Assembly (NCBI RefSeq): GCF_013315695.1
Contig: NZ_CP054353.1
Origin: Escherichia coli
GTDB taxonomy: Bacteria > Pseudomonadota > Gammaproteobacteria > Enterobacterales > Enterobacteriaceae
Length of the DNA stretch: 64,000 nucleotides
Reading direction: 5' to 3' (one strand)
Shown here one piece after another: positions 9,313 to 64,000 of this stretch; within the stretch, counting starts at the first letter, position 1, and every line of letters starts with the position of its first letter. A program made the position numbers and the translations under genes. The notes beneath the pieces were generated by a model, which saw only the letters and a program-made list of their open reading frames with translations, searched no databases and was not told the DNA's origin.

Positions 9313-10338
9313 ATGAAAGTATCAACTCTTGGTATCGACCTGGCAAAGAACGTTTTTCAGCTTCATGGTGTCGATCATGAAGGCCATACTATTTTGCGTA
9401 AAAAGCTCACCCGGGCTAAGTTTGTTCAGTTTGTGATTCAACTGGAACCTTGTCTGATTGGCATGGAAGCCTGCTCATCCAGTCATTATTTTGCGCGATT
9501 ATTCACCCGCTATGGTCATGAGGTAAAACTCATACCTCCGCAGTATGTGAAGCCTTATGTGAAAACGAACAAGACGGATGCAGCAGATGCTGAAGCAATC
9601 TGCGAAGCGGTAACCCGTCCGAATATGCGTTTTGTTCAGATAAAAACCGAAGAGCAGCAGGCCGTTTTAGCGTTACACACTGAACGGGGAATACTTATCC
9701 GTGAGCGGATTGCCTGTGCCAATAGTTTAAGAGCCACACTTGCTGAGTTTGGTATTACGATTGCGGCCGGACAAAGCCATTTAACACGTGAGCTGCCAGC
9801 CATTCTGGAGGATGGCGAAAATGGTTTATCTCCCTTTGTCAGAACCAGCATCTACAGACAGTCTAAACATATCCGGGAACTTGAAGAACAAGTTAAACAG
9901 GTAGAAGAAGCTCTGGCCTCCTGGTATAGAACGCAGGAAGCCTGCCAGAGAATGGCCAAGATCCCGGGGGTTGGCATGCTAACGGCCACTTATGTGGTAG
10001 CAGCAGTGGGTAATGCCCGACAATTCAGTACCGCAAAGCAGTTCGCTTCATGGCTGGGGCTGACACCAAAGGAACATTCCAGCGGCGGGAAACAGCAACT
10101 GGGAGGGATCAGCAAACGTGGAGATGGATATTTCCGATACCTGCTGGTTCACGGCGCACGCGCACTTACCGCCTGGGTCAACCGAAACGGCGCGGTTGAG
10201 GAGAATTCCTGGCTTCAGGGACTCCTTGAGCGGAAGCACTACAATGTAGCTGTTGTCGCCATGGCGGCAAAAACAGCGAGGATCATGTGGTCAATGTTGT
10301 CACACAATACTGAATATCAACCTCGGCAGCTCGCCTGA
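9313..10338 (+). CDS. IS110-family (IS1111-subgroup-like) transposase
   Basis: 341-aa ORF MKVSTLGIDLAKNVFQLHG...EACSSSHYFAR...VKSNKTDAADAEAICEA; matches the N-terminal RuvC-like DEDD architecture of IS5075/IS1111-type transposases as I recall them. Confidence 0.85.
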   Translation: MKVSTLGIDLAKNVFQLHGVDHEGHTILRKKLTRAKFVQFVIQLEPCLIGMEACSSSHYFARLFTRYGHEVKLIPPQYVKPYVKTNKTDAADAEAICEAVTRPNMRFVQIKTEEQQAVLALHTERGILIRERIACANSLRATLAEFGITIAAGQSHLTRELPAILEDGENGLSPFVRTSIYRQSKHIRELEEQVKQVEEALASWYRTQEACQRMAKIPGVGMLTATYVVAAVGNARQFSTAKQFASWLGLTPKEHSSGGKQQLGGISKRGDGYFRYLLVHGARALTAWVNRNGAVEENSWLQGLLERKHYNVAVVAMAAKTARIMWSMLSHNTEYQPRQLA

Positions 10339-25062: not shown

Positions 25063-26349
25063 TTACCCCACTTTCTTATGGGGCATACATGGGACACTTT
25101 CAGATAGTCTTTTGTTAAGGAGTTCTATCTGTTCGTGATTGTTGTCTTTCATCCATGCTCCGTAAACATTGAATACCATTTGTGCGTTTGTGTGGCCCAT
25201 CTGGCTTGCGATAAAACTAGGATTAGCTCCAGCGGCAAGTGACCAGCATGCATAAGTATGCCTGGATTGGTACGATTTTCTGTGTCTCAGACCTGCGTGT
25301 TTTAAGATACTTGTCCATGACTCCCTGATGGAGTCAACCTTATAGTGCGGTCCGGAAAACTGCCGCTGTTTTATTACCTGAGGACTAAAAACAAAAGTGC
25401 ATTTATGCACAGTACTTCTCCCATATTCCCTCTGCTTTACCTCTACAGAATGTTGCTTTCCAAGCATGGTCATTTCCGCCTGACTTTTAAGAGCATCAAT
25501 AGCTGGTTGAACCAGATGAATTGTCCTTCCGGTGCCAGCATCGGTTTTTGGTGGAGTGAATTCGCCAAGTTTTGTATAATTCCTACGGATGGTTATAGTC
25601 CTTGCTTTAAGATCTATATCTTCCCATGCCAGCGATACCAGCTCCCCGTGACGAATACCCGTGTATACAGCGAGAATCCACAGGTTTTTTGTTTGTTGAT
25701 GACGGCAAGCCTCAATAAAACGAATAAATTCGTCACGGGTGAGAGGATCTGGTTTTACCTTGGACTTTTTTAAGGGAGCCAGACCGTTAAATGGGTTTCC
25801 TGAGGTATAACCATTATCTGTTGCAAATTGAAACATTCCAGCTATGGTTGTCATATAGTAGTTTACCGTGACCACTGAGCGCCCTTTTATGGAAGAAGTC
25901 TTTCCATTAGAAAGTTTTTGGTAACCGGTCAACAAATCTCTCCTTACGAAAAGTAAATCCTCTTTTGTTATGGATGAAACCAGTTTTTTTTCACCTAACA
26001 TTGGTAACATGTTTTTAATTACTGACTGGTAACGGTTAAGTGCATTCGCACAAATCTCAATTTTCTTAAGGTCCAACCATTTTTCCGAAAGTGCCTTAAC
26101 GGTTATCTCTCTTTTTCCCAGACCAAAGTGTTTCAGGTTAGGGGAATTAGGGAACTGCGCGGAGTAGTCGAAACTCCCCATTCTGATTGCAAAACAAACG
26201 GAAGTGCGAAGTTCACCAGCGATCTTCCGGTTTTTGGCTGTGTCAGGAACACCGAGGTTTTCTCTGACACGTTTGCCATTATAGTGAAACCATATACGGA
26301 GTGATCCTCCATGGTTTTCAACGCCTGTCGGGTATGATGCGTTACTCAT
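25063..26349 (-). CDS. int: tyrosine-type site-specific integrase
   Basis: 428-aa ORF with R (GIRHGEL), HxxR (SRHTYA) and catalytic Y (VFNVYGAW) motifs; adjacent to the attL junction. Confidence 0.9.
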   Translation of the reverse strand: MSNASYPTGVENHGGSLRIWFHYNGKRVRENLGVPDTAKNRKIAGELRTSVCFAIRMGSFDYSAQFPNSPNLKHFGLGKREITVKALSEKWLDLKKIEICANALNRYQSVIKNMLPMLGEKKLVSSITKEDLLFVRRDLLTGYQKLSNGKTSSIKGRSVVTVNYYMTTIAGMFQFATDNGYTSGNPFNGLAPLKKSKVKPDPLTRDEFIRFIEACRHQQTKNLWILAVYTGIRHGELVSLAWEDIDLKARTITIRRNYTKLGEFTPPKTDAGTGRTIHLVQPAIDALKSQAEMTMLGKQHSVEVKQREYGRSTVHKCTFVFSPQVIKQRQFSGPHYKVDSIRESWTSILKHAGLRHRKSYQSRHTYACWSLAAGANPSFIASQMGHTNAQMVFNVYGAWMKDNNHEQIELLNKRLSESVPCMPHKKVG

Positions 26350-32817: not shown

Positions 32818-33367
32818 GCATCATTGGAAAGTGGAAAAACAGCCTGAGTGGTACGTGAAAGCTGTCAGAAAAACTATCGCGGCGTTGCCGGGGGGTTACG
32901 CTGAAGCTGCTGAGTGGCTGGATGTAACAGAGAACGCATTATTCAACCGCCTTCGTGCAGATGGCGATCAGATTTTCCCGCTGGGATGGGCAATGGTTTT
33001 ACAGCGTGCGGCTGGCACTCACTACATTGCGGATGCTGTCGCACAGTCTGCTGGTGGGGTGTTCGTATCGCTTCCTGAAATTGAGGCAGTAGAGAACGCC
33101 GATATAAACCAGCGCCTGCTGGAAGTCATTGAACAGATCGGCAGTTATTCCAGACAGATTCGTTCAGCAATCGAAGACGGTGTAGTGGAACCGCATGAGA
33201 AGACAGCAATTAACGACGAACTGTATCTTTCAATTTCGAAGCTCCAGGAGCATGCAGCACTGGTCTACAAAATCTTCTGCGCTCCAGAAAAGAGTAACGC
33301 CCGCGAGTGTGCAGCTCCGGGCGTCGTGGCGTCGATTGCTTCTGGTTGTGGAGAAACTAACGCATGA
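32810..33367 (+). CDS. hypothetical regulator in the cII position (possibly YmfL-like)
   Basis: 185-aa ORF overlapping the cro stop and the next start. Confidence 0.4.
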   Translation: MGKHHWKVEKQPEWYVKAVRKTIAALPGGYAEAAEWLDVTENALFNRLRADGDQIFPLGWAMVLQRAAGTHYIADAVAQSAGGVFVSLPEIEAVENADINQRLLEVIEQIGSYSRQIRSAIEDGVVEPHEKTAINDELYLSISKLQEHAALVYKIFCAPEKSNARECAAPGVVASIASGCGETNA

Positions 33368-34509
33368 ATAGTTTAACGGCAAATAACCGTTTGTCGCAAC
33401 AGCTGGTGGTCAGCGTCGCTGAACACCTGTTGTTACGGCATGAATGCAGATTACCAAATCACCTGGCTGTAAGTAACCACAGAGAACTTTACCTGACTGT
33501 GGGGGGCGAGTTGTGCAGGAACTTAACCGCTGGTTTCGTGACGGAAGAGGGCTTTATGTCCATGTTATTCGTTGGGAGCCAGAAACACAGCGCGTTATCT
33601 ATCTTCGCAAAGACTACCCGCATGAGTGCTTTAGTCCTTTGTGGAAATTCAGGCGTGATTTTGTTGAGTGTGAAGGACCACCAGCATATTGATTCTGCAA
33701 TTCCGGGACGTTACACTGTTCAGGCACCTTATAAAGCGGGTGCCGGGATTGGCGTCCTGAAATTCGCACATGCGCATAACCGCGCTTCAGCGGTTTTTTT
33801 GCGCACGTTTCCTCACATCCAAATTATGGTGGGGCGTGCAGGGGCATCGAAAGATGCGCCGGGGTCATGTGCGACCGGTTACGCCAACCCTGTACGTCTC
33901 ACCACCTCTGTGATTGGCGTCCCATGTGGTGAGTTTTCAAAATTCGCACATGAGGATGTCACTATGGCAACCACCCCTACCCAAACTCACCCTAAAATTG
34001 ATGTTATCCATGGGAAGGCTGTTACCTCTTCTTTGGCCGTTGCCGAATATTTCTGCAAGCAGCACAAAAACGTTATTCAAAAAATCCAGACGCTTGAGTG
34101 CTCTGTTGAATTCACTGAGCTGAATTTTCAGCCCAGTGATTACACCGATTGCACAGGCCGCAAACTCCCTTGTTACCAAATCACCCGCGACGGTTTTGCG
34201 TTTCTTGCCATGGGCTTCACGGGGAAACGTGCTGCCCGGTTCAAAGAGGCATACATCAATGCCTTTAACCAGATGGAGAAACAGCTTTCAAATCCCTCTG
34301 TACTGAGCGACGTTGCACATAACGCCAGCGTTCTCTATTCCTACATTTCATCAATTCATCAGGTCTGGCTGCAGCAGCTTTATCCTATGTTGGCAAAAGC
34401 CGAATCTCCGCTGGCTGTTAGCTTGTATGACTATATTAATGATGCTTCGGCGCTGGCCTGCCTCATAAATTTGTCGCTGAATCCTTCAGAGGTAAGGGGG
34501 CGTAAATGA
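33364..34509 (+). CDS. Rha-family phage regulatory protein, copy 1 (variable N-terminal region plus Rha domain)
   Basis: C-terminal ITRDGFAFLAMGFTGKRAARFKEAYINAFNQME matches the Rha-domain signature as I recall it; possible internal start near 33965 (MATTPTQ...). Confidence 0.65.
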   Translation: MNSLTANNRLSQQLVVSVAEHLLLRHECRLPNHLAVSNHRELYLTVGGELCRNLTAGFVTEEGFMSMLFVGSQKHSALSIFAKTTRMSALVLCGNSGVILLSVKDHQHIDSAIPGRYTVQAPYKAGAGIGVLKFAHAHNRASAVFLRTFPHIQIMVGRAGASKDAPGSCATGYANPVRLTTSVIGVPCGEFSKFAHEDVTMATTPTQTHPKIDVIHGKAVTSSLAVAEYFCKQHKNVIQKIQTLECSVEFTELNFQPSDYTDCTGRKLPCYQITRDGFAFLAMGFTGKRAARFKEAYINAFNQMEKQLSNPSVLSDVAHNASVLYSYISSIHQVWLQQLYPMLAKAESPLAVSLYDYINDASALACLINLSLNPSEVRGRK

Positions 34510-35387
34510 TCCGGAATATTTTCAAACTGTTTACCAATCGCCACCAGCATATTGATTCTGCAATTCCGGGACGTTACACTGTTCAGGCACCTTATAAAGC
34601 GGGTGCCGGGATTGGCGTCCTGAAATTGTCAACGGCGATGTATGACGCGCCAGCGTCTTTTTTATCGTCCGCATTTGCTCACATCCAGATTATGGTGGGC
34701 TGGGCGGGGGCACCGAAAGGTGCGCCGGTCTCCGTTGACGCCGGTTACGCCAACCCCGTCCAGTTCACCACCAGTGAAATTGGCGTTTCCGGTGGTGGAA
34801 GTTTTTCACTGTCAACGGAGGCTGCCATCATGGCTACGATCCCAGCCCTCACTCAACCTGAAATCACCATTGACAACGGCCAGGCCGTTACCACTTCTTT
34901 GGCTGTTGCCAACTTCTTCTCCAAGCGTCACGACGATGTGCTGAAAAAGATCCGCACTCTGGATTGTTCCCCTGAGTTTTGTGCCCGCAATTTTGCGGAG
35001 ACATCGATTTCGGTAAATCAACCGAACGGTGGTACACGCAAGCTCCTTTGCTATCAAATCACACGAGACGGTTTTGCGTTTCTTGCTATGGGTTTCACGG
35101 GTAAACGTGCTGCCCGGTTCAAAGAGGCATACATCAATGCCTTTAACCAGATGGAAAAACTGCTTTCAAAGCCATCCACGCTGAGCGATGCCGCAGATAA
35201 CGCCAGCGTGCTTTACTCCCACCTGTCGGTAATCCACAAGGTCTGGCTGCAGCAGCTTTATCCCATGTTGGCAAAAGCCGAATCCCCGCTGGCTGTAAGT
35301 CTGTATGACCGCATCAACGACGCGGCGCTACTGGCCAGTCTCATAAATTTGTCGCTGAACCCTTCAGAGGTAAGGGGGCGTAAATGA
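34506..35387 (+). CDS. Rha-family phage regulatory protein, copy 2 (tandem paralogue)
   Basis: 293-aa ORF; same Rha C-terminal motif; N-terminus MIRNIFKLFTNRHQHIDSAIPGRY repeats a segment inside copy 1. Confidence 0.65.
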   Translation: MIRNIFKLFTNRHQHIDSAIPGRYTVQAPYKAGAGIGVLKLSTAMYDAPASFLSSAFAHIQIMVGWAGAPKGAPVSVDAGYANPVQFTTSEIGVSGGGSFSLSTEAAIMATIPALTQPEITIDNGQAVTTSLAVANFFSKRHDDVLKKIRTLDCSPEFCARNFAETSISVNQPNGGTRKLLCYQITRDGFAFLAMGFTGKRAARFKEAYINAFNQMEKLLSKPSTLSDAADNASVLYSHLSVIHKVWLQQLYPMLAKAESPLAVSLYDRINDAALLASLINLSLNPSEVRGRK

Positions 35388-42691: not shown

Positions 42692-42767
42692 GGCCCTTTA
42701 GCTCAGTGGTGAGAGCGAGCGATTCATAATCGCCAGGTCGCTGGTTCAAATCCAGCAAGGGCCACCA
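42692..42767 (+). tRNA. tRNA with CAU anticodon (Ile2/Met-type; ileZ-like)
   Basis: Cloverleaf GGCCCTT-TA-GCTCAGTGGTGAGAGC..anticodon loop TTCATAA..GGTTCAAATCC..AAGGGCC-A-CCA. Confidence 0.85.
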
Positions 42768-42774
42768 TCACATA

Positions 42775-42851
42775 CCGCCATTAGCTCATCAGGATAGAGC
42801 GCCAGCCTTCGAAGCTGGTTGCGCGGGGTTCGAGTCCTCGATGGCGGTCCA
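42775..42851 (+). tRNA. tRNA-Arg (anticodon UCG; argN-like)
   Basis: Acceptor CCGCCAT/ATGGCGG, anticodon loop CTTCGAA, T-loop GGTTCGAGTCC, encoded CCA. Confidence 0.8.
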
Positions 42852-42864
42852 TTATCTGTACCCT

Positions 42865-42941
42865 GCGTTATTAGCTCAGCCGGACAGAGCAATTGCCTTC
42901 TAAGCAATCGGTCACTGGTTCGAATCCAGTACAACGCGCCA
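42865..42941 (+). tRNA. tRNA-Arg (anticodon UCU; argO/argU-like)
   Basis: GCGTTATTAGCTCAGCCGGACAGAGC..anticodon loop CTTCTAA..GGTTCGAATCC..CGCCA, close to host argU. Confidence 0.8.
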
Positions 42942-43433: not shown

Positions 43434-45395
43434 ATGGCATTTAAACACTATGACGTGGTCAGGGCGGCATCGCCGTCAGACCTTGCGAAACGACTGACAC
43501 AAAAACTGAAGGAGGGGTGGCAGCCATTTGGCAGTCCGGTGGCCATCACGCCTTATACCCTGATGCAGGCCATTGCGGCGGAAGGTGATGTCACCACACC
43601 TGTGGTGGTGAAGCCGTCGGATGGAGAAGGCGCAGTTATCAGCAACACCAGCAACCCGGAGTATTACTTTGTTGTTGCCCTGGCCGGGCAGTCAAACGGT
43701 ATGGCGTATGGTGAAGGGCTTCCGCTGCCGGAGACATATGACCGTCCGGACCCGCGTATTAAACAGCTGGCGCGTCGCAGCACTGTCACGCCGGGTGGTG
43801 CGTCCTGTAACTACAATGACATTATTCCTGCGGACCACTGCCTGCATGATGTTCAGGATTTGAGTAAGTTTTCACACCCGAAAGCCAGCGCAGCTCAGTA
43901 TGGATGCGTGGGGCAGGGATTACATATCGCGAAGAAATTGTTGCCGTTTATTCCGGCGAATGCCGGTATTCTTCTGGTTCCGTGCTGCCGTGGTGGTTCT
44001 GCATTTTTGGCGGGCGATGAAGGTACCTTCAGCGAATCCACCGGCGCAAGCGAGACCTCGGCACGCTGGGGTGTAGATAAGCCACTGTACAAGGACCTGC
44101 TTACCCGTACTCAGGCCGCACTGAAGGCCAACCCTAAAAATATTCTGCTTGCAGTGGTCTGGATGCAGGGCGAGTTTGATTTGAAACAGGGTGCATACGC
44201 CACTCAGCCGGGGCTGTTTGATTCCATGGTGGAAAAATATCGTTCTGACCTGTCGGAATTCGGAGGTCAGTGTCTCGGGGGCTCTCCGTCATCAGTTCCC
44301 TGGATTTGTGGCGACACGACCTACTACTGGAAGCAGACTTATTCTTCGCAATACGATGCGGTGTATGGTGCATATAAGACGAAATCCGCAAAAAAAATCT
44401 TCTTTGTGCCGTTTATGACGGATGAAAACGGGCGAAATGTGGGTACCAACGAGCCGTCAGAAGATCCGGATGTTGCGGATATTGGGTATTACGGAGCCGG
44501 TGGTCGAACGGACGCCAAAACCTGGACGACGGCTGACCGTAAAACGCATTTTGGATCATGGGCACGTCGTGGGATTATTTCCGACCGTCTGGCAACGGCG
44601 ATTCTTGTGCATGCCGGGAGAACCGCTGAATTCATTACCGGAAAACAGCCTGATACGGTGAAGCCCACCGGACCTTCCGGTGAAGGTACGGAGAGAGAGC
44701 CGGAAGGTCCGGTCAGTAACCGAACCCTGATGAGTCTGCTGGCGTCCGGCGAAGACCTGGCATCACAGGGCTGGCGCTATTATCACAAACCGGCGAGCGG
44801 AGACAATGTTAACAAAAACATTGCTGAAGCGGTGGTCAGTGATGCGGGGGCTACGGGAGGTAAGGCCCTGCAACTGAATAAACCGGAAAACCACATCTGG
44901 TTTCTGGAGCATGATGCAGCCGGGCAGGGGGCAGAGTTGCTGAAGAAAGGAGGACGTGTGAGCGTACGGTTTAAGTTGCCGGGTTCACTGGTGCCGAATC
45001 AGTTTGCCCTGGGCATTTACTGGCAGTTGTCGTCCCTGCCGGAGGGAGTGACGCTGGCAGAGGAAGGCAACGACATGCTGATGTCCTTCTTTCTGCAGAC
45101 GGATGCGACGAACCTGAACGCGATGCACCACAAGAAGCCGAATGCGAAGCTGGAAACGTTCGGGGTCTTTGATAACGGATGGCACACACTGGCTTTTGAG
45201 TTTGCCGGAAACAACAGCATTCAGGTGACGCCGGTACTGGATGAGAAACGGGGGACGCCGTTCACACTGGTGAAATCTCCGGCATCAGGGGCGGCGGACA
45301 AACTGCAACTGACAGGCATATCAAAGGCGGCGACATATACGCTGCTGATTGACAGTGTGAAGGTGGAAGTGAACAACGCGGATGCCGCGGCATGA
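43434..45395 (+). CDS. nanS-p: prophage sialate O-acetylesterase (NanS-p-like)
   Basis: 653-aa ORF; position and sequence recalled as the esterase found downstream of stx in Stx phages. Confidence 0.65.
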   Translation: MAFKHYDVVRAASPSDLAKRLTQKLKEGWQPFGSPVAITPYTLMQAIAAEGDVTTPVVVKPSDGEGAVISNTSNPEYYFVVALAGQSNGMAYGEGLPLPETYDRPDPRIKQLARRSTVTPGGASCNYNDIIPADHCLHDVQDLSKFSHPKASAAQYGCVGQGLHIAKKLLPFIPANAGILLVPCCRGGSAFLAGDEGTFSESTGASETSARWGVDKPLYKDLLTRTQAALKANPKNILLAVVWMQGEFDLKQGAYATQPGLFDSMVEKYRSDLSEFGGQCLGGSPSSVPWICGDTTYYWKQTYSSQYDAVYGAYKTKSAKKIFFVPFMTDENGRNVGTNEPSEDPDVADIGYYGAGGRTDAKTWTTADRKTHFGSWARRGIISDRLATAILVHAGRTAEFITGKQPDTVKPTGPSGEGTEREPEGPVSNRTLMSLLASGEDLASQGWRYYHKPASGDNVNKNIAEAVVSDAGATGGKALQLNKPENHIWFLEHDAAGQGAELLKKGGRVSVRFKLPGSLVPNQFALGIYWQLSSLPEGVTLAEEGNDMLMSFFLQTDATNLNAMHHKKPNAKLETFGVFDNGWHTLAFEFAGNNSIQVTPVLDEKRGTPFTLVKSPASGAADKLQLTGISKAATYTLLIDSVKVEVNNADAAA

Positions 45396-50112: not shown

Positions 50113-50124
50113 GGGCGGCGACCT
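50113..50124 (+). other. cosN cohesive-end site
   Basis: gggcggcgacct followed by cgcggattttcactatttatgaaaattttccgg, matching the lambda left cohesive end GGGCGGCGACCT as recalled. Confidence 0.8.
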
Positions 50125-50308: not shown

Positions 50309-50818
50309 GTGGCTACGCAGACTGAAGTTGCCAGGCATTTAAGTCTGACCGATCGCCAGCTTCGCAGATTGCAGAAATTGCCGGGTGCCCCGATATCGAA
50401 TAAGCGAGGGCAACTGGATCTGGATGCCTGGCGCGATTTTTACATATCGTATCTGAGAAGAAGTAAAAACGATGTGCCTGATGGCGATAGCGAAGACGAC
50501 TATGAGGAGAAATTGCTTATTGCCAGATGGGAACTGACAGCAGAACAGGCTGTTACACAGCAGTTAAAAAATGAGGTGTCAAAAGGAAAACTTATTGACA
50601 CCGGGTTCTGTATTTTTGCCCTCAGCAAGCTGGCAATGGCGTTATCCAGTACGCTTGATTCCATCCCTTTATCCATGCAGCGACAGTTTCCTGATTTAAC
50701 ACCGCGCCATCTTGACCATCTGAAAACCCTTATTGCGAAGGGGGCAAATCAGTGTGCGCGGGCGGGGGATAAATTACCGGATTTACTCGATGAATATATC
50801 AGAGCAACAACTGAATAA
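50309..50818 (+). CDS. terminase small subunit (Nu1-like)
   Basis: 169-aa ORF (GTG start); C-terminal similarity to lambda Nu1. Confidence 0.8.
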   Translation: MATQTEVARHLSLTDRQLRRLQKLPGAPISNKRGQLDLDAWRDFYISYLRRSKNDVPDGDSEDDYEEKLLIARWELTAEQAVTQQLKNEVSKGKLIDTGFCIFALSKLAMALSSTLDSIPLSMQRQFPDLTPRHLDHLKTLIAKGANQCARAGDKLPDLLDEYIRATTE

Positions 50819-52707
50819 TATGATGAGTGCTGTCACAACAGCATTACAGCCCCTGATAAGGGCATTGCCGGTGACGCCAGTTGAATGGGCTGATCAAAAT
50901 TATTATCTGCCTAAAGAATCTTCATATGGTGAGGGAGAATGGAAAACGCTGCCGTTCCAGATCGCCATCATGAACAGCATGGGGAATGATCAGATCCGGA
51001 CTGTTAATCTGATTAAATCTGCCCGTGTTGGCTATACAAAGATGTTGCTGGGGGTGGTCGGGTATTTTATTGAGCATAAATCCCGAAACAGTCTGCTTTT
51101 TCAGCCCACGGATTCTGCCGCTGAAGATTTTATGAAGTCTCACGTGGAGGCGACGATTCGGGATGTGCCATGTCTGAAAGACCTTTCTCCATGGCTGGGG
51201 CGTAAACATCGTGACAATACTCTCACGCTGAAACGCTTTTCATCGGGTGTGGGCTTCTGGTGCCTGGGCGGCGCTGCCGCCAAAAACTACCGTGAAAAAT
51301 CCGTGGACGTGGTCTGCTATGACGAACTTTCCTCGTTCGAACCGGATGTCGAAAAAGAGGGTTCGCCAACCCTGCTTGGGGATAAACGTATTGAGGGCTC
51401 TGTATGGCCCAAATCCATTCGCGGCTCGACGCCTAAAATCAAAGGCACCTGCCAGATCGAAAAAGCGGCCAACGAGTCGGCGCATTTCATGCGTTTTTAT
51501 GTGCCCTGCCCGCACTGTGGGGAGGCGCAGTATCTGAAATTTGGCGATGAGTCCACGCCTTTTGGCCTTAAATGGGAGAAGGACAGCCCCGAAAGCGTTT
51601 TCTACCTCTGTGAACATCATGGCTGCGTGATCCATCAGTCTGAGCTTGACCAGAGCAACGGGCGGTGGATCTGTGAAAACACGGGGATGTGGACCCGCGA
51701 CGGTCTGACGTTTTTCAGCGCTGCGGATAATGAAATTCCGCCGCCGCGCTCCATCACATTCCATATCTGGACGGCGTACAGTCCGTTCACCACCTGGGTA
51801 CAGATTGTCTATGACTGGCTGGATGCACTGAAAGATCCCAACGGCCTGAAAACCTTTGTGAACACCACGCTGGGCGAGACCTGGGAAGAGGCCGTGGGCG
51901 AAAAACTCGATCACCAGGTGCTGATGGATAAGGTTGTGCGTTACACGGCTGCGGTGCCTTCCCGGGTGGTTTATCTGACGGCGGGCATTGACTCGCAGCG
52001 AAACCGTTTTGAGATGTATGTCTGGGGATGGGCTCCGGGAGAGGAAGCCTTTCTGGTGGATAAAATCATCATTATGGGGCGTCCCGATGAGGAAGAGACG
52101 CTGTTACGTGTGGATGTGGCGATCAACAAAAAATACCGCCATGCAGACGGAACCGAAATGACCATTTCCCGTGTCTGCTGGGACACCGGGGGGAATTGTC
52201 TATCAGAGGTCAAAAAAACACGGTGTTTTCCGGGTGCTGCCGGTAAAAGGTGCATCTGTTTATGGCAAGCCGGTGATCACCATGCCAAAAACCCGCAATC
52301 AGCGGGGCGTGTATCTGTGCGAAGTGGGGACGGACACCGCAAAAGAAATTCTCTATGCCCGTATGAAAGCCGATCCCACGCCTGCGGATGAAGCCACGTC
52401 GTATGCCATCCGTTTTCCTGATGATCCGGAGATTTTTTCGCAGACAGAGGCGCAGCAACTGGTGGCGGAAGAGCTTGTGGAGAAGTGGGAAAAAGGAAAG
52501 ATGCGTCTGCTGTGGGATAACAAAAAGCGGCGTAACGAAGCGCTGGACTGCCTGGTGTATGCCTACGCGGCATTACGTGTGTCCGTGCAACGCTGGCAGC
52601 TTGATCTGGCTGTACTGGCAAAATCCCGGGAAGAAGAGACGACCCGGCCAACCCTTAAAGAACTGGCAGCGAAGCTGTCCGGAGGAGTGAATGGTTACAG
52701 TCGCTGA
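50790..52707 (+). pseudogene. terminase large subunit (lambda A-like) with a frameshift at 52188-52193
   Basis: N-terminal frame (MNISEQQLNN...RVCWDTGG) and C-terminal frame (GIVYQRSKKHGVFRVLPVKGASVYGKPV...) both match lambda gpA as recalled, but are offset by one base at a run of six G. Confidence 0.8.
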
Positions 52708-52897
52708 ACTGCAGGCGCTGCGTCAGGCGCGCCTTGATTTATTAACCGGTAAACGGGTGGTGTCTGTCCAGAAAGATGGTCGCAGAATTGAATATACGGC
52801 AGCTTCTCTGGATGAGCTTAACCGGGCGATCAATGATGCGGAGTCGGTACTGGGGACAACCCGCCGTCGCCGTCGTCCGCTGGGAGTGAGGTTATGA
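52691..52897 (+). CDS. head-tail joining protein W
   Basis: 68-aa ORF ...LTGKRVVSVQKDGRRIEYTAASL... close to lambda gpW. Confidence 0.85.
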   Translation: MVTVAELQALRQARLDLLTGKRVVSVQKDGRRIEYTAASLDELNRAINDAESVLGTTRRRRRPLGVRL

Positions 52898-54486
52898 AAC
52901 GAACGCCTGTCCTGATTGATGTGAACGGCGTTCCGCTTCGGGAGAGCCTCAGCTACAACGGTGGCGGTGCAGGATTTGGCGGGCAAATGGCAGAGTGGTT
53001 GCCACCCTCGCAGAGTGCCGATGCGGCCCTGCTGCCCGCGTTGCGTCTGGGGAATGCCCGTGCAGATGATCTGGTGCGCAATAACGGAATAGCGGCCAAT
53101 GCGGTGGCCCTGCATAAGGATCACATTGTCGGGCATATGTTTCTGATCAGTTACCGTCCGAACTGGCGCTGGCTGGGGATGCGGGAGACCGCGGCAAAAA
53201 GTTTTGTCGATGAGGTGGAGGCGGCCTGGTCAGAATACGCAGAAGGGATGTTTGGTGAGATCGACATGGAAGGGAAACGCACGTTCACGGAATTTATCCG
53301 TGAAGGTGTGGGCGTTCATGCGTTTAACGGCGAAATCTTTGTGCAGCCGGTCTGGGATACGGAGAGCACGCAACTGTTTCGTACGCGTTTTAAAGCCGTG
53401 AGTCCGAAACGGGTGGACACGCCAGGACACGGTATGGGGAACCGTTTTCTGCGGGCCGGTGTGGAGGTCGATCGATATGGTCGTGCCGTTGCGTACCATA
53501 TCTGTGAGGATGATTTTCCTCGCTCCGGGAGTGGACGATGGGAACGGATCCCGCGTGAACTTCCCACCGGGCGTCCGGCCATGCTGCATATTTTCGAGCC
53601 GGTGGAGGACGGGCAGACCCGTGGGGCCAATCAGTTTTACAGCGTAATGGAACGGCTGAAGATGCTCGATTCCCTGCAGGCAACACAGCTTCAGTCGGCC
53701 ATAGTGAAGGCGATGTATGCAGCGACGATTGAAAGTGAACTTGATACCGAAAAGGCCTTTGAATATATCGCCGGTGCGCCGCAGGGGCAGAAGGATAATC
53801 CGCTTATTAATATTCTGGAGAAGTTCTCCACCTGGTATGACACGAATAGCGTGACGCTGGGCGGTGTCAAAATTCCGCACCTTTTCCCCGGTGATGATCT
53901 GAAACTTCAGACCGCGCAGGATTCAGACAATGGATTTTCGGCGCTTGAACAGGCGCTGCTGCGGTATATCGCCGCCGGTCTTGGCGTTTCCTACGAACAG
54001 TTGTCCCGTGATTACTCGAAGGTCAGTTATTCAAGTGCCCGCGCATCCGCCAATGAGTCGTGGCGCTATTTTATGGGGCGGCGAAAATTTATTGCGTCCC
54101 GGCTGGCCACGCAGATGTTTTCCTGCTGGCTGGAAGAGGCACTTCTTCGGGGGATTATTCGTCCGCCACGGGCGCGTTTTGATTTTTATCAGGCGCGATC
54201 AGCCTGGTCACGGGCTGAGTGGATTGGAGCCGGAAGAATGGCCATTGACGGGCTCAAGGAGGTTCAGGAATCAGTGATGCGCATTGAGGCCGGACTGAGC
54301 ACGTATGAGAAAGAGCTGGCGCTGATGGGCGAGGATTATCAGGACATTTTCCGCCAGCAGGTCAGGGAATCTGCAGAGCGGGAAAAAGCCGGACTCTCAC
54401 GTCCGGTGTGGATAGCGCAGGCGTATCAGCAGCAGATAGCGGAGAGTCGCAGGCCGGAAGAGGAGACAACACCACGTGAGACGTAA
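52894..54486 (+). CDS. portal protein (lambda B-like)
   Basis: 530-aa ORF with long near-identical stretches to lambda gpB (VEDGQTRGAN.FYSVME..KMLD.LQ.TQLQSAIVKAMYAATIESELDT). Confidence 0.9.
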   Translation: MKRTPVLIDVNGVPLRESLSYNGGGAGFGGQMAEWLPPSQSADAALLPALRLGNARADDLVRNNGIAANAVALHKDHIVGHMFLISYRPNWRWLGMRETAAKSFVDEVEAAWSEYAEGMFGEIDMEGKRTFTEFIREGVGVHAFNGEIFVQPVWDTESTQLFRTRFKAVSPKRVDTPGHGMGNRFLRAGVEVDRYGRAVAYHICEDDFPRSGSGRWERIPRELPTGRPAMLHIFEPVEDGQTRGANQFYSVMERLKMLDSLQATQLQSAIVKAMYAATIESELDTEKAFEYIAGAPQGQKDNPLINILEKFSTWYDTNSVTLGGVKIPHLFPGDDLKLQTAQDSDNGFSALEQALLRYIAAGLGVSYEQLSRDYSKVSYSSARASANESWRYFMGRRKFIASRLATQMFSCWLEEALLRGIIRPPRARFDFYQARSAWSRAEWIGAGRMAIDGLKEVQESVMRIEAGLSTYEKELALMGEDYQDIFRQQVRESAEREKAGLSRPVWIAQAYQQQIAESRRPEEETTPRET

Positions 54487-55981
54487 TCTTTCACACATTA
54501 TTGCCGCAGCATTCAATGAACCGCTGCTTCTGGAGCCCGCCTATGCGCGGGTTTTCTTTTGCGCGCTCGGGCGCGAGATGGGGGCAGCAAGTCTTTCGGT
54601 ACCGCAACAGCAGGTACAGCTTGATGCTCCCGGGATGCTGGCTGAAACGGACGAGTACATGGCCGGAGGTAAACGACCGGCCCGTGTTTACCGGGTGGTG
54701 AACGGTATTGCGGTACTGCCGGTGACCGGCACGCTGGTGCACCGGCTGGGGGGGATGCGGCCATTTTCCGGAATGACTGGCTATGACGGCATTGTCGCCT
54801 GTCTTCAGCAGGCAATGGCAGATAGCCAGGTGCGGGGCATACTGCTGGACATTGACAGTCCGGGCGGGCAGGCCGCCGGCGCGTTTGACTGCGCTGACAT
54901 GATTTACCGCCTCCGGCAGCAGAAGCCGGTCTGGGCACTGTGTAATGACACGGCCTGTTCTGCAGCCATGCTGCTGGCGTCGGCCTGCTCCCGACGGCTG
55001 GTTACCCAGACATCCCGTATCGGCTCCATTGGCGTGATGATGAGCCATGTCAGCTATGCCGGTCATCTGGCGCAGGCCGGTGTGGATATCACGCTGATTT
55101 ACTCAGGAGCGCACAAGGTGGATGGCAATCAGTTTGAAGCGTTGCCGGCAGAGGTTCGCCAGGACATGCAGCAGCGGATTGATGCGGCGCGCCGGATGTT
55201 TGCCGAAAAAGTGGCGATGTATACCGGTCTGTCTGTTGATGCGGTCACGGGAACAGAGGCTGCCGTTTTTGAAGGTCAGTCCGGCATTGAGGCCGGGCTG
55301 GCGGATGAATTAATCAATGCGTCGGATGCCATCAGTGTGATGGCCACGGCGCTGAACAGTAATGTCAGAGGAGGCACTATGCCGCAATTAACTGCAACGG
55401 AAGCCGCCGTGCAGGAGAACCAGCGAGTGATGGGGATCCTGACATGCCAGGAAGCGAAAGGACGTGAACAGCTTGCCACGATGCTGGCAGGGCAACAGGG
55501 CATGAGCGTTGAACAGGCCCGGGCGATTCTGGCCGCGGCGGCACCGCAGCAGCCGGTGGCATCCGCACAGAGTGAAGCCGATCGCATTATGGCGTGTGAA
55601 GAAGCGAACGGTCGTGAACAACTGGCGGCAACGCTGGCGGCGATGCCGGAGATGACGGTGGAAAAAGCCCGCCCGATCCTGGCTGCTTCACCGCAGGCGA
55701 ATGCCGGACCATCACTCCGTGATCAGATCATGGCACTGGATGAGGCAAAAGGGGCTGAGGCGCAGGCTGAACAGCTGGCTGCCTGCCCGGGAATGACTGT
55801 GGAGAGCGCCCGGGCTGTGCTGGCTGCGGGATCAGGTAAGGCAGAACCGGTCTCTGCATCCACAACCGCCCTGTTTGAACATTTCATGGCGAACCATTCA
55901 CCGGCTGCGGTCCAGGGGGGCGTGTCACAGGCGTCAGAAGACGGTGATGCGGACGTGAAAATGCTCATGGCCATGCCATGA
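54476..55981 (+). CDS. head protease/scaffold (lambda C/Nu3-like, S49 peptidase family)
   Basis: 501-aa ORF; C-terminal half carries three tandem ~35-aa repeats. Confidence 0.8.
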   Translation: MRRNLSHIIAAAFNEPLLLEPAYARVFFCALGREMGAASLSVPQQQVQLDAPGMLAETDEYMAGGKRPARVYRVVNGIAVLPVTGTLVHRLGGMRPFSGMTGYDGIVACLQQAMADSQVRGILLDIDSPGGQAAGAFDCADMIYRLRQQKPVWALCNDTACSAAMLLASACSRRLVTQTSRIGSIGVMMSHVSYAGHLAQAGVDITLIYSGAHKVDGNQFEALPAEVRQDMQQRIDAARRMFAEKVAMYTGLSVDAVTGTEAAVFEGQSGIEAGLADELINASDAISVMATALNSNVRGGTMPQLTATEAAVQENQRVMGILTCQEAKGREQLATMLAGQQGMSVEQARAILAAAAPQQPVASAQSEADRIMACEEANGREQLAATLAAMPEMTVEKARPILAASPQANAGPSLRDQIMALDEAKGAEAQAEQLAACPGMTVESARAVLAAGSGKAEPVSASTTALFEHFMANHSPAAVQGGVSQASEDGDADVKMLMAMP

Positions 55982-56017
55982 AGTCAGTGCTGAACATCAA
56001 TACGAGGTTTTTACAAT

Positions 56018-56368
56018 ATGGTGACGAAAACCATCACTGAACAGCGTGCGGAAGTACGTATTTTTGCCGGTAATGATCCGGCTCACACCGCCACAGGCAG
56101 CAGCGGGATTTCCTCGGCAACACCGGCACTGACACCCCTGATGCTGGATGGGGCCACCGGGAAACTGGTGGTCTGGGACGGACAGAAAGCCGGTAGTGCG
56201 GTTGGCATACTGGTACTGCCGCTTGAAGGCACAGAGGAGGTGCTGACCTATTACAAGTCGGGGACCTTTGCGACGGAGGCAATCCGCTGGCCTGAAAGTG
56301 TGGATGAACACAAAAAGGCCAACGCCTTTACCGGCAGTGCCCTGAGTCACGCGGCGCTGCCGTAACAC
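56018..56368 (+). CDS. head decoration protein D
   Basis: 115-aa ORF ...DPAHTAT...TPLMLD...YYKSGTF... lambda gpD-like. Confidence 0.85.
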
Positions 56369-56422
56369 GTTATCAGGCCACCGCGTTGGCCTGACTGATT
56401 TCTTAATGAAAGGAACTGATTT

Positions 56423-57451
56423 ATGGGATTGTTTACGACCCGCCAGTTACTCGGTTATACCGAACAAAAAGTTAAATTCCGTGCGCTGTTTCTGGAGCTG
56501 TTTTTCCGCCGTACGGTGAATTTCCACACCGAAGAGGTGATGCTGGACAAAATTACCGGAAAAACGCCGGTGGCGGCCTATGTCTCCCCGATCGTTGAAG
56601 GAAAAGTGCTTCGCCATCGCGGTGGTGAAACCCGCGTGTTACGTCCGGGCTACGTCAAGCCCAAACACGAATTTAATTACCAGCAGGCGGTTGAGCGCCT
56701 TCCTGGTGAAGATCCGGCTCAGCTGAACGACCCGGCCTACCGTCGTCTGCGTATCATTACCGATAACCTCAAACAGGAAGAGCACGCCATTGTCCAGGTG
56801 GAAGAAATGCAGGCGGTGAATGCCGTGCTGTATGGCAAATACACCATGGAAGGGGATCAGTTTGATACTGTCGAGGTGGATTTCGGGCGCTCTGAAGGAA
56901 ATAACATTGAGCAGGCTGACGGTAAAAAATGGTCTGAGCAGGACCGTGATACGTTTGATCCGACGCATGATATTGACCTCTACTGCGATCAGGCCAGCGG
57001 CCTTGTGAATATCGCCATTATGGACGGTACGGTCTGGCGTCTGCTGAATGGCTTTAAGCTGTTCCGCGAAAAACTGGATACCCGTCGCGGCTCAAATTCA
57101 CAACTCGAAACGGCAGTGAAAGATCTGGGGGCGGTGGTGTCCTTCAAGGGGTATTACGGCGATCTGGCCATTGTGGTGGCGAAAACGTCTTATGTGGCAG
57201 AGGACGGTACCGAAAAACGTTATCTGCCGGAGGGCATGCTGGTGCTGGGGAATACGGCAGCAGAGGGCATTCGTTGCTATGGTGCCATTCAGGATGCGCA
57301 GGCGTTGTCCGAAGGTGTGGTGGCCTCTTCCCGTTACCCGAAACACTGGCTGACCGTGGGCGATCCGGCCCGTGAATTCACCATGACGCAGTCCGCACCG
57401 CTGATGGTGCTGCCGGATCCGGATGAGTTTGTGGTGGTACAGGTGAAATAA
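56423..57451 (+). CDS. major capsid protein E
   Basis: 342-aa ORF with extended identity to lambda gpE (GYVKPKHE ... TRRGSNS.LETAVKDLG ... GDPAREFTM.QSAPLM). Confidence 0.9.
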   Translation: MGLFTTRQLLGYTEQKVKFRALFLELFFRRTVNFHTEEVMLDKITGKTPVAAYVSPIVEGKVLRHRGGETRVLRPGYVKPKHEFNYQQAVERLPGEDPAQLNDPAYRRLRIITDNLKQEEHAIVQVEEMQAVNAVLYGKYTMEGDQFDTVEVDFGRSEGNNIEQADGKKWSEQDRDTFDPTHDIDLYCDQASGLVNIAIMDGTVWRLLNGFKLFREKLDTRRGSNSQLETAVKDLGAVVSFKGYYGDLAIVVAKTSYVAEDGTEKRYLPEGMLVLGNTAAEGIRCYGAIQDAQALSEGVVASSRYPKHWLTVGDPAREFTMTQSAPLMVLPDPDEFVVVQVK

Positions 57452-59987: not shown

Positions 59988-60419
59988 ATGTTCCTGAAAA
60001 CAGAACAATTTGAATATAACGGTGTATCCGTCACGCTTTCTGAGCTGTCTGCGCTGCAGCGTATTGAGCATCTTGCCCTCCTGAAACGGCGGGCAGAAGA
60101 GGCTGAAGCCAGCGGCAACCTGCAGGTGAGTGTGGAAGATCTTGTCAGAACCGGCGCGTTTCTGGTGGCGATGTCCCTGTGGCATAACCATCCACAGAAA
60201 ACGCAGTCACCGTCAATGAATGAGGCCGTGATGAAGATAGAGCAGGAAGTGCTCACCACCTGGCCTGCCGATGCCATTGCCCGGGCGGAAGACGTGGTGT
60301 TGTGCCTGTCCGGGATGATCGAAGCTGTTCGTCCGGATACTGATATTACTGAAGTGGCGAAAAATAACACGCTGACTGATGATGATTTTTCTGCGGGAAA
60401 GTCTTCGACGGCGAGCTGA
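59988..60419 (+). CDS. tail assembly chaperone G
   Basis: 143-aa ORF followed by an overlapping -1 frame ORF (T). Confidence 0.8.
   Translation: MFLKTEQFEYNGVSVTLSELSALQRIEHLALLKRRAEEAEASGNLQVSVEDLVRTGAFLVAMSLWHNHPQKTQSPSMNEAVMKIEQEVLTTWPADAIARAEDVVLCLSGMIEAVRPDTDITEVAKNNTLTDDDFSAGKSSTAS
60395..60401 (+). promoter_or_regulatory. programmed -1 ribosomal frameshift slippery site (G to G-T fusion)
   Basis: Heptamer GGGAAAG at the 3' end of G, as in lambda G/GT; -1 frame continues as ORF 60446..60859. Confidence 0.75.
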
Positions 60420-60445: not shown

Positions 60446-60859
60446 ATGGGGAGACCCGACTGGCGCGCCATGCTTGCCGGGATGACATCCACCGAATATG
60501 CCGACTGGCACCGTTTTTACCGCACGCATTATTTTCAGGATACCCAGCTGGATATGCATTTTTCCGGGCTGACGTACGCTGTACTCAGCCTGTTTTTTTG
60601 CGATCCGGATATGCATCCCTCTGATTTCAGTCTGCTTGTCCCCCGGCATGAGGAAGAGCAGGTGGAGAGGCCGGATGAGGACAAAATGCTGATGCAGAAA
60701 GCGGCAGGACTTGCCGGAGGCGTCCGGTTCGGTGGGGACGGAGGGCGCGATATTTTATCGTCTGCGGATGTGGCGGATGTCATGGTGGATGATGCCGCAT
60801 TAATGATGGCTTCAGCGGGGATTCCGGGAGGTGTGAGATATGTCCCAGCCGGTTGGTGA
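60446..60859 (+). CDS. T-frame portion of the G-T tail assembly protein
   Basis: 137-aa ORF in the -1 frame relative to G, ends overlapping the H start. Confidence 0.7.
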   Translation: MGRPDWRAMLAGMTSTEYADWHRFYRTHYFQDTQLDMHFSGLTYAVLSLFFCDPDMHPSDFSLLVPRHEEEQVERPDEDKMLMQKAAGLAGGVRFGGDGGRDILSSADVADVMVDDAALMMASAGIPGGVRYVPAGW

Positions 60860-63727: not shown

Positions 63728-64000
63728 TGCAGGATATTCGCGAAGAAAGTCTGAACGAGTCGGTTAAGTCAGAGCAGTCACCGCGGGTGGTACTCTGGGA
63801 AATCGACCTGACGGTACAGGGTGGTGAGCGGTATTTTTTCTGTAATGAGCTGAATGAAAAAGGGGAGCCGGTCACCTGGCAGGGGCGTAAGTATGAGGCA
63901 TACCCGATTGACGGCAGCGGCTTTGAGATGAACGGCCGGGGCAGCAGTGCCAGACCGTCGCTGACGGTGTCCAATCTGTTCGGTCTGGTCACCGGGATGG
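63727..64000 (+). CDS. minor tail protein L (N-terminal part; continues beyond window)
   Basis: ORF from ATG at 63727: MQDIREESLNESVKSEQSPRVVLWEIDLTVQGGERYFFCNE..., lambda gpL-like. Confidence 0.85.
   Translation, partial: MQDIREESLNESVKSEQSPRVVLWEIDLTVQGGERYFFCNELNEKGEPVTWQGRKYEAYPIDGSGFEMNGRGSSARPSLTVSNLFGLVTGM

What the first reader, a model, noticed from the sequence alone, without database searches (positions are those of the whole stretch)
52188..52193. Terminase large-subunit gene split by a frameshift in a G6 homopolymer
The upstream frame ends ...RVCWDTGG and then reads out of frame; the next frame resumes GIVYQRSKKHGVFRV..., and both halves match lambda gpA. A run of five G (accgggggaatt) would restore one continuous protein. 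This is either a homopolymer sequencing error or a genuine inactivating mutation that makes the prophage packaging-defective.
Basis: seen in the sequence. Interest (0 to 1): 0.5.

Follow-up and report, generated by a model that had tools for sequence, protein, structure and literature searches.

The report
Prophage terminase gene broken by 11-bp deletion
The large terminase gene of a lambda-like prophage in this E. coli chromosome is split by an 11-base deletion just after a normal run of six G's, not by an extra G; this is ordinary prophage decay that should stop the phage from packaging its own DNA.

Summary
The G6 run at 52188-52193 and the frame switch there are real, and both halves are large terminase (TerL, lambda gpA family). 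Intact relatives, including the same prophage at the same chromosomal site in sister strain E. coli MSB1_4I and phage 21, also have G6. They follow it with ATCGATGGCGA, which the window lacks.

The lesion is therefore an 11-bp deletion at 52193|52194. It removes codons I469-D470-G471-E472 and shifts the frame in the middle of the GpA_nuclease domain. The predicted product has 468 native residues plus 65 nonsense residues. It lacks the rest of the nuclease domain and the C-terminal segment that in lambda binds the prohead.

A G5 run would reopen the frame, but the protein would lack invariant I469 and D470.

The deletion junction was not found in 5,426 complete E. coli genomes, GTDB species representatives, JGI metagenomes or IMG/VR. 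It is the only unbalanced indel in about 63 kb compared with MSB1_4I. I read it as a recent, private, probably genuine mutation (about 0.8); a local assembly error remains possible (about 0.15).

cosN, terS, portal, protease and capsid genes are intact, so rescue in trans by a co-resident lambdoid prophage is plausible. Novelty is low.

The parts
50113..50124 (+). cosN-like cohesive-end site, GGGCGGCGACCT, an exact match to the lambda 12-nt end
   Evidence: the only zero-mismatch match in the window. It lies 185 bp upstream of terS, as in phage 21 and lambda.
50309..50818 (+). terS (small terminase, 169 aa), intact
   Evidence: The ORF is. It hits PHROG terminase small subunit families. Its coordinates match the annotated terS WP_000235436.1 in MSB1_4I.
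50790..52193 (+). terL N-terminal part in its native frame (residues 1-468): the ATPase domain and the first half of the nuclease domain, ending ...CWDTGG
   Evidence: every residue matches the intact MSB1_4I TerL. Pfam on the intact protein gives GpA_ATPase 48-293 and GpA_nuclease 323-601. The PHROG TerL match stops at residue 469.
52188..52193 (+). G6 run (GGG GGG = G467 G468); this is the wild-type length and not the lesion
   Evidence: the same G6 is present in the intact alleles L001, L003, L004, L006-L008, L012 and L015.
52193..52194 (+). Junction of the 11-bp deletion. Ancestral ATCGATGGCGA (equivalently TCGATGGCGAA) is missing between these two bases, with 1-nt microhomology.
   Evidence: Alignment A1. 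Base-by-base comparison with MSB1_4I. Adding the 11 bases back gives a 642-codon ORF reading DTGGIDGEIVYQ.
52194..52391 (+). Out-of-frame tail of the truncated product (65 nonsense codons, NCLSEVKK...HACG, then a stop codon)
   Evidence: No family match beyond residue about 474.
52192..52707 (+). terL C-terminal part, stranded in the +1 frame (ancestral residues 473-642): the second half of the nuclease domain including invariant NEALD (D590), plus the C-terminal segment that is the prohead-binding end in lambda gpA
   Evidence: identical to MSB1_4I TerL residues 473-642. Precomputed Pfam assigns GpA_nuclease to the identical 141-aa fragment. No promoter-like site lies nearby. By eye, there is no Shine-Dalgarno sequence before the GTG at 52171.
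52212..52218 (+). A7 run 19 nt downstream of the G6. It has the wild-type length here but is a frameshift site in other genomes.
   Evidence: A5, A6 and A8 variants occur in L006, L007, L008, L014 and L015.
52691..52897 (+). gpW-like head-tail joining gene, intact
   Evidence: The ORF is. It is annotated as WP_000259002.1 in relatives.
52894..54486 (+). Portal gene (530 aa), intact
   Evidence: It has the same length as the annotated portal genes.

Best explanation
The window carries an E. coli lambdoid prophage integrated next to mlrA (yehV). It runs from about 25 kb to beyond the window end.

Its large terminase gene (phage 21 / lambda gpA type) has lost 11 bp, ATCGATGGCGA, immediately after a conserved GGG GGG (Gly467-Gly468) pair of codons. 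This removes codons 469-472 (IDGE) and shifts the frame by one base.

Translation from ATG 50790 should therefore give a 533-residue protein:
- 468 native residues, comprising the N-terminus, the ATPase domain and about half of the nuclease domain;
- 65 nonsense residues.

The last 170 native residues are no longer translated in frame. They hold the rest of the nuclease domain, including the invariant NEALD aspartate, and the extreme C-terminus that in lambda docks terminase on the portal.

Shown here: the identity of the lesion, its position within the domains, and its absence from all relatives examined.

Inferred:
- The mutation is real rather than an assembly error.
- The truncated protein cannot complete cos cleavage or prohead docking, so the prophage cannot package itself.
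- The prophage keeps cosN, terS and the head genes, so a co-resident lambdoid prophage with a compatible terminase could still package it.
For: Identity of the lesion:
- The alignment with intact alleles shows G6 in all of them and an 11-base gap only in the window.
- Against the same prophage in MSB1_4I (99.6% identity over 36.9 kb), this is the only unbalanced indel.
- The terL gene otherwise differs from MSB1_4I by one substitution that does not change the protein.

Assembly quality:
- The adjacent 26 kb of chromosome shows 8 SNPs and 0 indels against MSB1_4I, so the assembly has no indel noise.

Rarity:
- In the 401-bp search no complete genome lacked the gap. The 39 of the 40 top hits that span 412 bases for the 401-base query score 97.3%, the value expected from the 11-base gap alone. 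The one exception is ExPEC XM, at 411 bases.
- The junction is absent from GTDB species representatives, JGI metagenomes and IMG/VR.
- The exact truncated products are absent from a 15-billion-protein collection.

Position and consequence:
- The break lies inside GpA_nuclease, which spans residues 323-601.
- I469, D470, D401, D465 and D590 are invariant in 18 homologs.
- In lambda, loss of only the last 5 residues of gpA abolishes prohead binding and virus yield, and this defect is rescued about 2000-fold in trans (PMC4856287).
- TerL nucleases are RNase H-like with three acidic catalytic residues (PMC9410871).

Rescue in trans:
- An exact cosN is present, and terS, portal, protease and capsid genes are intact.
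- O157 Sakai prophage Sp4, which has a broken terminase, is still packaged, most likely by Sp14 terminase (PMC2669165).
- Closely related strains hold 2-3 places matching this cos-terS module.
Against: - No reads are available, so a local consensus or polishing error cannot be excluded. This is a particular risk where several paralogous prophage terL copies exist in one genome.
- No experiment here shows loss of packaging.
- The assignment of D401, D465 and D590 as catalytic residues is by analogy only. No relative has a solved structure detectable by sequence, and the AlphaFold model was unusable (pLDDT 34).
- The window ends at 64000, inside the tail region, so the integrity of the rest of the prophage and the presence of a helper prophage in this genome are unknown.
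Confidence: 0.8

Rival explanations
1. The 11 bases are present in the real genome and were lost in assembly or polishing. This could happen through mis-mapped reads from paralogous prophage terL copies, in which case the prophage terminase is actually intact.
For: - The allele is unique to this sequence, which is also what an artefact would look like.
- terL and cos-terS paralogs are common in E. coli. Genomes that have the terL segment hold a median of 2 places, and some closely related strains hold 2-3 places for cos-terS.
- Other public assemblies show evident length errors or variants in the nearby G6 and A7 runs.
Against: - Typical sequencing errors are 1-2 bases in homopolymers, not a clean 11-base loss of non-repetitive sequence.
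- The rest of the 63 kb shared with MSB1_4I shows no unbalanced indel.
- The flanking G6 and A7 runs have the wild-type length.
Confidence: 0.15
2. This is the first reader's model: a one-base expansion of a G5 run to G6 split the gene, either as a homopolymer sequencing error or as a slippage mutation.
For: - The frame changes exactly at the run.
- Removing one G reopens the frame.
- A genuine G5 variant of this run exists in another genome, ExPEC XM, where it is annotated as frameshifted.
Against: - Every intact allele examined has G6.
- The window lacks the 11 bases that follow the run in all of them.
- A G5 allele here would encode a protein missing invariant I469 and D470.
Confidence: 0.01
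3. The split is tolerated through recoding. A +1 ribosomal slip or transcriptional slippage on GGG GGG A yields some full-length TerL lacking IDGE, and that protein is active enough for packaging. Alternatively, the two fragments reassemble.
For: - The required shift is +1 and it falls on a run of identical Gly codons.
- The downstream frame is fully open and identical to wild type.
Against: - No relative uses two frames here. All have a single ORF, so nothing has been selected for recoding.
- The slip product would lack invariant I469 and D470, and no homolog varies in length at this loop.
- No stimulatory structure is apparent (z-score -0.9).
- The C-terminal fragment has no promoter-like site and, by eye, no ribosome-binding site.
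- The window's genuine programmed frameshift (G/GT, GGGAAAG at 60395-60401) looks quite different.
Confidence: 0.02

Closest known systems
Phage 21 gp2 and lambda gpA large terminase (Pfam GpA_ATPase PF05876 + GpA_nuclease PF20454)
   Same: - The reconstructed protein is 642 aa, 91% identical to phage 21 gp2 and 66% to lambda gpA.
- It has the same two domains.
- The gene order is the same: cosN, terS, terL, W, portal, protease.
   Different: - In the window the gene is interrupted by an 11-bp deletion at codon 469 and cannot encode the full protein.
- The terS N-terminal half differs from that of phage 21 and lambda: terS is 169 aa here against 182 aa in phage 21.
Defective lambdoid prophages of E. 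coli, such as O157 Sakai Sp4, whose terminase gene nu1 is disrupted by an IS (PMC2669165)
   Same: - Both are otherwise largely complete lambdoid prophages disabled in the packaging enzyme.
- Both keep a cos site, so trans-packaging by a sibling prophage is possible.
   Different: - The lesion here is a small deletion in the large subunit, not an IS insertion in the small subunit.
- No experimental data exist for this prophage.
Lambda Aam42 and other gpA C-terminal truncation mutants (Feiss laboratory; PMC4856287)
   Same: Both truncate gpA and remove the C-terminal prohead-binding end. Aam42 is recessive and can be complemented in trans.
   Different: - Aam42 lacks only 5 residues and still nicks cos.
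- The window allele loses 174 residues (469-642), including half of the nuclease domain, so cos cleavage is also expected to fail. That expectation is an inference.
Homopolymer frameshift alleles of the same terL in other E. coli assemblies (G5; A5, A6 or A8)
   Same: They affect the same gene and the same 30-nt stretch, and they give the same outcome: a split terL annotated as a pseudogene or as two fragments.
   Different: The window has wild-type run lengths and an 11-bp deletion instead.

Membership tests
Lambda gpA-type large terminase (functional member) | N-terminal GpA_ATPase domain | tested here: met
   Pfam finds GpA_ATPase at residues 48-293 of the intact sister protein. The window's N-terminal part matches that protein at every residue.
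Lambda gpA-type large terminase (functional member) | Complete GpA_nuclease domain in one polypeptide | tested here: not met
   The domain spans residues 323-601. The window's frame breaks after residue 468, and the PHROG TerL match stops at 469.
Lambda gpA-type large terminase (functional member) | C-terminal prohead (portal)-binding end translated in frame | tested here: not met
   The C-terminal 170 codons are stranded in the +1 frame. In lambda, loss of the last 5 residues already abolishes prohead binding (PMC4856287).
Lambda gpA-type large terminase (functional member) | Genomic context: cosN, terS upstream, W and portal downstream | tested here: met
Lambda gpA-type large terminase (functional member) | ATPase, cos-cleavage and packaging activity | not testable with these tools
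   This requires induction and packaging assays.
Homopolymer-length frameshift (sequencing error or slippage mutation) | Run length differs from that of intact alleles | tested here: not met
   The window and all intact alleles have G6, and the A7 run also has the wild-type length.
Programmed ribosomal frameshift or recoding site | Two-frame organisation conserved among homologs | tested here: not met
   All 18 aligned homologs and the annotated relatives are single ORFs. The split allele was not found elsewhere.
Programmed ribosomal frameshift or recoding site | Stimulatory element (structure or slippery heptamer) at the shift site | tested here: not met
   The fold around the site scores z = -0.9 against shuffles. 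There is no X XXY YYZ motif. Compare the genuine G/GT site, GGGAAAG at 60395-60401.
Pseudogene in a decaying prophage | Disrupted ORF whose intact ortholog exists at the same locus in close relatives | tested here: met
   MSB1_4I carries the same prophage at the same mlrA-side site with an intact 642-aa terL.
Pseudogene in a decaying prophage | The lesion is present in the organism and not only in the assembly | not testable with these tools
   No reads are available. Indirect support comes from the absence of any other unbalanced indel in 63 kb.

The most novel reading that the evidence does not exclude
The G6 run next to the deletion might allow low-level +1 slippage, transcriptional or ribosomal. 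That would make a full-length TerL lacking IDGE with residual activity, leaving the prophage leaky rather than dead. Alternatively, the truncated protein, which keeps the N-terminal region that binds the small subunit in lambda gpA (background knowledge, not tested here) and the ATPase domain but has no portal-binding end, might act as a dominant-negative inhibitor of packaging by related co-resident or superinfecting lambdoid phages that share its terS/cos specificity.
Probability: 0.03. Interest if true: 0.4.

Novelty: already known. Interest (0 to 1): 0.1.

Why it matters
This matters mainly for annotation and quality control. The gene should be annotated as a terL pseudogene caused by an 11-bp deletion. 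It should not be 'corrected' as a homopolymer error, because trimming one G would create an artificial protein that lacks two invariant residues.

Biologically, it is a clean example of two near-identical strains disabling the same mlrA-integrated prophage in different ways: an IS insertion in int in MSB1_4I and a deletion in terL here. That is the expected pattern of rapid, independent prophage decay.

For mobility predictions, this prophage should be unable to package itself but could still be mobilised by a compatible helper terminase.

Tried and rejected
- **Junction searches.** Exact searches for the deletion junction in GTDB species representatives, JGI metagenomes and IMG/VR returned nothing.
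- **Exact protein look-up.** The 533-aa and 178-aa products are not on record. Only the generic 141-aa C-terminal fragment is. The contigs that encode it all carry different lesions, G5 or A-run changes.
- **Solved structures.** Single-sequence and 3-sequence profile searches found no relative, so catalytic residues could not be mapped by homology.
- **AlphaFold2.** A run on an 18-sequence alignment gave pLDDT 34 and pTM 0.26. The model is unusable, and no fold search was run on it.
- **Cause of the deletion or a recoding signal.**
  - The DNA fold is not different from shuffles.
  - There is only 1-nt microhomology.
  - No promoter-like site precedes the C-terminal fragment.
- **638-aa homologs.** I checked whether these natural variants lack the IDGE loop. 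They do not; their length difference is at the extreme C-terminus.
- **Link to nearby recombination.** I considered whether the deletion is tied to the mosaic tract. The SNP cluster starts at 53007, about 800 bp downstream of the deletion, and terL itself has a single substitution. I found no link.

Full report
**Observation**

Window 52188-52193 is GGGGGG, in the context ACC GGG GGG AAT TGT. The ORF list shows a frame from 50733 (biological ATG at 50790, MNISEQQ...) that reads ...ISRVCWDTGG. It then continues through 65 unrelated codons to a stop at 52389-52391. A second frame, shifted by +1, reads GIVYQRSKKHGVFRVLPVKG... to a stop at 52705-52707.

**What the lesion is**

A megablast of 51990-52390 against 5,426 complete E. 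coli genomes found the segment in 1,882 of them. Of the 40 top hits, 39 span 412 bases for the 401-base query and score 97.3%, the value expected from an 11-base gap alone. The exception is ExPEC XM, which spans 411 bases. No genome matched without a gap. Phage 21 and several recently deposited E. coli phages gave the same 412-base result.

The alignment settles the point. Intact alleles read ACC GGG GGG ATC GAT GGC GAA ATT GTC (T G G I D G E I V). These include E. coli AR_0013, phage 21 (which has ATC in place of ACC) and later MSB1_4I. The window reads ACC GGG GGG AAT TGT C.

- G6 is the ancestral run length.
- The window lacks the following 11 bases, ATCGATGGCGA. This is equivalent to TCGATGGCGAA, so there is 1 nt of microhomology.
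- Re-inserting the 11 bases restores a 642-codon ORF.
- Deleting one G gives a 638-codon ORF that reads DTGGIVYQ.
- The strain ExPEC XM has a true G5 allele, which RefSeq annotates as frameshifted.

**Context**

The window is E. coli chromosome followed by a lambdoid prophage.

- Bases 1-25998 match strain MSB1_4I with 8 SNPs and no indel.
- The prophage begins next to mlrA (yehV) and runs past the end of the window.
- Window 27100-64000 aligns to the MSB1_4I prophage at 99.6% identity. The 11-base gap is the only unbalanced indel.
- Substitutions cluster in the portal, protease and decoration genes (53.0-56.5 kb) and after 63.8 kb. terL itself has one substitution, which does not change the protein.
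- In MSB1_4I the integrase is split by ISKpn26, whereas the window's 428-aa integrase is uninterrupted. The two sister strains have thus disabled the same prophage in different ways.
- Upstream of terL, an exact lambda-type cosN (GGGCGGCGACCT, 50113-50124) and terS (50309-50818) are intact. Downstream, gpW, portal, S49 protease/scaffold and major capsid genes are intact.

**Protein-level consequences**

Apart from the deleted codons, the two halves match the intact MSB1_4I TerL (WP_001530580.1, 642 aa) residue for residue. That intact protein is 91% identical to phage 21 gp2 and 66% to lambda gpA. Pfam places GpA_ATPase at residues 48-293 and GpA_nuclease at 323-601, so the break after residue 468 is in the middle of the nuclease domain.

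In 18 homologs of 66-100% identity, the following residues are invariant: W464, D465, G467, G468, I469, D470, I473, V474, and also D401 and D590. None of the homologs varies in length at this loop. The 634-638-aa variants are shorter only at the extreme C-terminus.

TerL nucleases are RNase H-like with three acidic catalytic residues (HK97 D302, D388 and D471; PMC9410871). By analogy, the truncated product would keep D401 and D465 but lose D590. This mapping is an inference. No relative has a solved structure detectable by sequence, and an AlphaFold2 run on the 18-sequence alignment failed (pLDDT 34).

In lambda, removing only the last five residues of gpA (Aam42) abolishes prohead binding and phage yield, and the defect is complemented about 2000-fold in trans (PMC4856287). 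A loss of 174 native residues (469-642) should therefore be null for packaging.

**Real mutation or artefact**

The junction is absent from complete E. coli genomes, GTDB species representatives, JGI metagenomes and IMG/VR. The exact truncated products are absent from a 15-billion-protein collection. Contigs that encode the same 141-aa C-terminal fragment all carry other lesions, namely G5 or A5/A6/A8 in the A7 run 19 nt downstream.

Uniqueness fits either a recent private mutation or an assembly error. I favour a real mutation, at about 0.8, for two reasons:

- An 11-base loss of non-repetitive sequence is not a typical sequencing error.
- The assembly shows no other unbalanced indel in about 63 kb against a near-identical strain, and the adjacent G6 and A7 runs have the wild-type length.

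A polishing error caused by paralogous prophage copies cannot be excluded without reads. I put that at about 0.15.

**Recoding**

Restoring the downstream frame needs a +1 shift on GGG GGG A. The evidence is against it:

- Nothing suggests selection for such a shift. All relatives are single ORFs.
- The local fold is no better than shuffled sequence.
- No promoter-like site precedes the C-terminal fragment, and by eye there is no ribosome-binding site before the GTG at 52171.
- Any slip product would lack invariant I469 and D470.
- The window's genuine programmed frameshift, the lambda-type G/GT site GGGAAAG at 60395-60401, lies 16-22 nt before the G stop and looks quite different.

**How it most likely works**

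On induction, the late operon would produce TerS, a truncated TerL, and normal proheads.

- Without the complete nuclease domain and the portal-docking end, cos cleavage and translocation should fail. The prophage may still lyse the cell but would not release its own infectious particles. This is an inference.
- Because terminase acts in trans and cosN is intact, a co-resident lambdoid prophage with a compatible cos-terS/terL module could package this prophage.
- Such rescue was shown for O157 Sakai Sp4, which has a disrupted terminase and was packaged most likely by Sp14 terminase (PMC2669165).
- The cos-terS module occurs in 1,148 complete genomes. Several closely related strains hold 2-3 matching places.
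- Whether this genome has such a helper cannot be seen from the window.

**Verdict**

The feature is a terL pseudogene created by an 11-bp deletion next to a wild-type G6 run. It is a commonplace form of prophage decay, with low novelty and low interest. The practical point is that the gene must not be 'repaired' by trimming a G.

Noticed in passing
window 25063-26349 (-), compared with L016 29563-32048: The prophage integrase is uninterrupted in the window (428 aa). In the near-identical sister strain MSB1_4I it is split by an ISKpn26 (IS5-like) insertion, while that strain's terL is intact. The same mlrA-integrated prophage has therefore been inactivated independently in two different ways.
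   Followed up: partly
window 52212-52218 and 52188-52193; loci L002, L006-L008, L014, L015: In other public E. coli assemblies the same terL is split by run-length changes in this A7 run (A5, A6, A8) or in the G6 run (G5). This 30-nt stretch is thus a recurrent site of frameshift calls. Whether they are real mutations or long-read homopolymer errors was not resolved.
   Followed up: partly
window 9313-10338 (+): An IS110-family transposase sits where lysO (ybjE) abuts yohP-mdtQ, two regions that are far apart in the K-12 map as I recall it. This suggests an IS-associated chromosomal rearrangement shared with MSB1_4I. Five of the 8 SNPs against MSB1_4I lie inside this IS.
   Followed up: no
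window 42692-42941 and 43434-45395: A phage tRNA cluster (Met-CAT, Arg-TCG, Arg-TCT) is followed after about 490 bp by a 653-aa SASA-family carbohydrate esterase. From memory this resembles the late-region layout of Stx phages, but no toxin genes lie between the two features.
   Followed up: no
window 53007-56473 and 63816-63981: Substitutions relative to the MSB1_4I prophage are tightly clustered in the portal, protease/scaffold and decoration genes and again in the gene after the tape measure gene. The rest of the prophage is nearly identical. This looks like mosaic recombination with other lambdoid prophages.
   Followed up: partly
window 60395-60401 (+): The lambda-type slippery heptamer G GGA AAG lies in the correct frame 16-22 nt before the stop of the tail chaperone G gene (59988-60419), with the T frame following (60446-60859). 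This is the known programmed -1 G/GT frameshift.
   Followed up: partly
proteins P0016-P0018 (other E. coli contigs): These 742-aa TerL variants carry an in-frame tandem duplication of about 100 residues (roughly 288-387) spanning the junction of the ATPase and nuclease domains. They were found among the close homologs. Whether they are real or assembly artefacts is unknown.
   Followed up: partly
window 33364-34509 and 34506-35387 (+): Two adjacent Rha-family regulatory genes share a segment of about 880 bp at 78% identity, so they are tandem paralogs in the early region.
   Followed up: no
window 50309-50818 (+): The small terminase is 169 aa with a GTG start. Its N-terminal (DNA-binding) half is unlike that of phage 21 and lambda, although the large subunit is 91% identical to that of phage 21. 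A different cosB specificity joined to a 21-like terL is implied. cosB repeats were not looked for.
   Followed up: no
window 32890-63067: All nine G or C runs of at least 6 bases in the window lie in the prophage part, and none lies in the 25 kb of chromosome.
   Followed up: no
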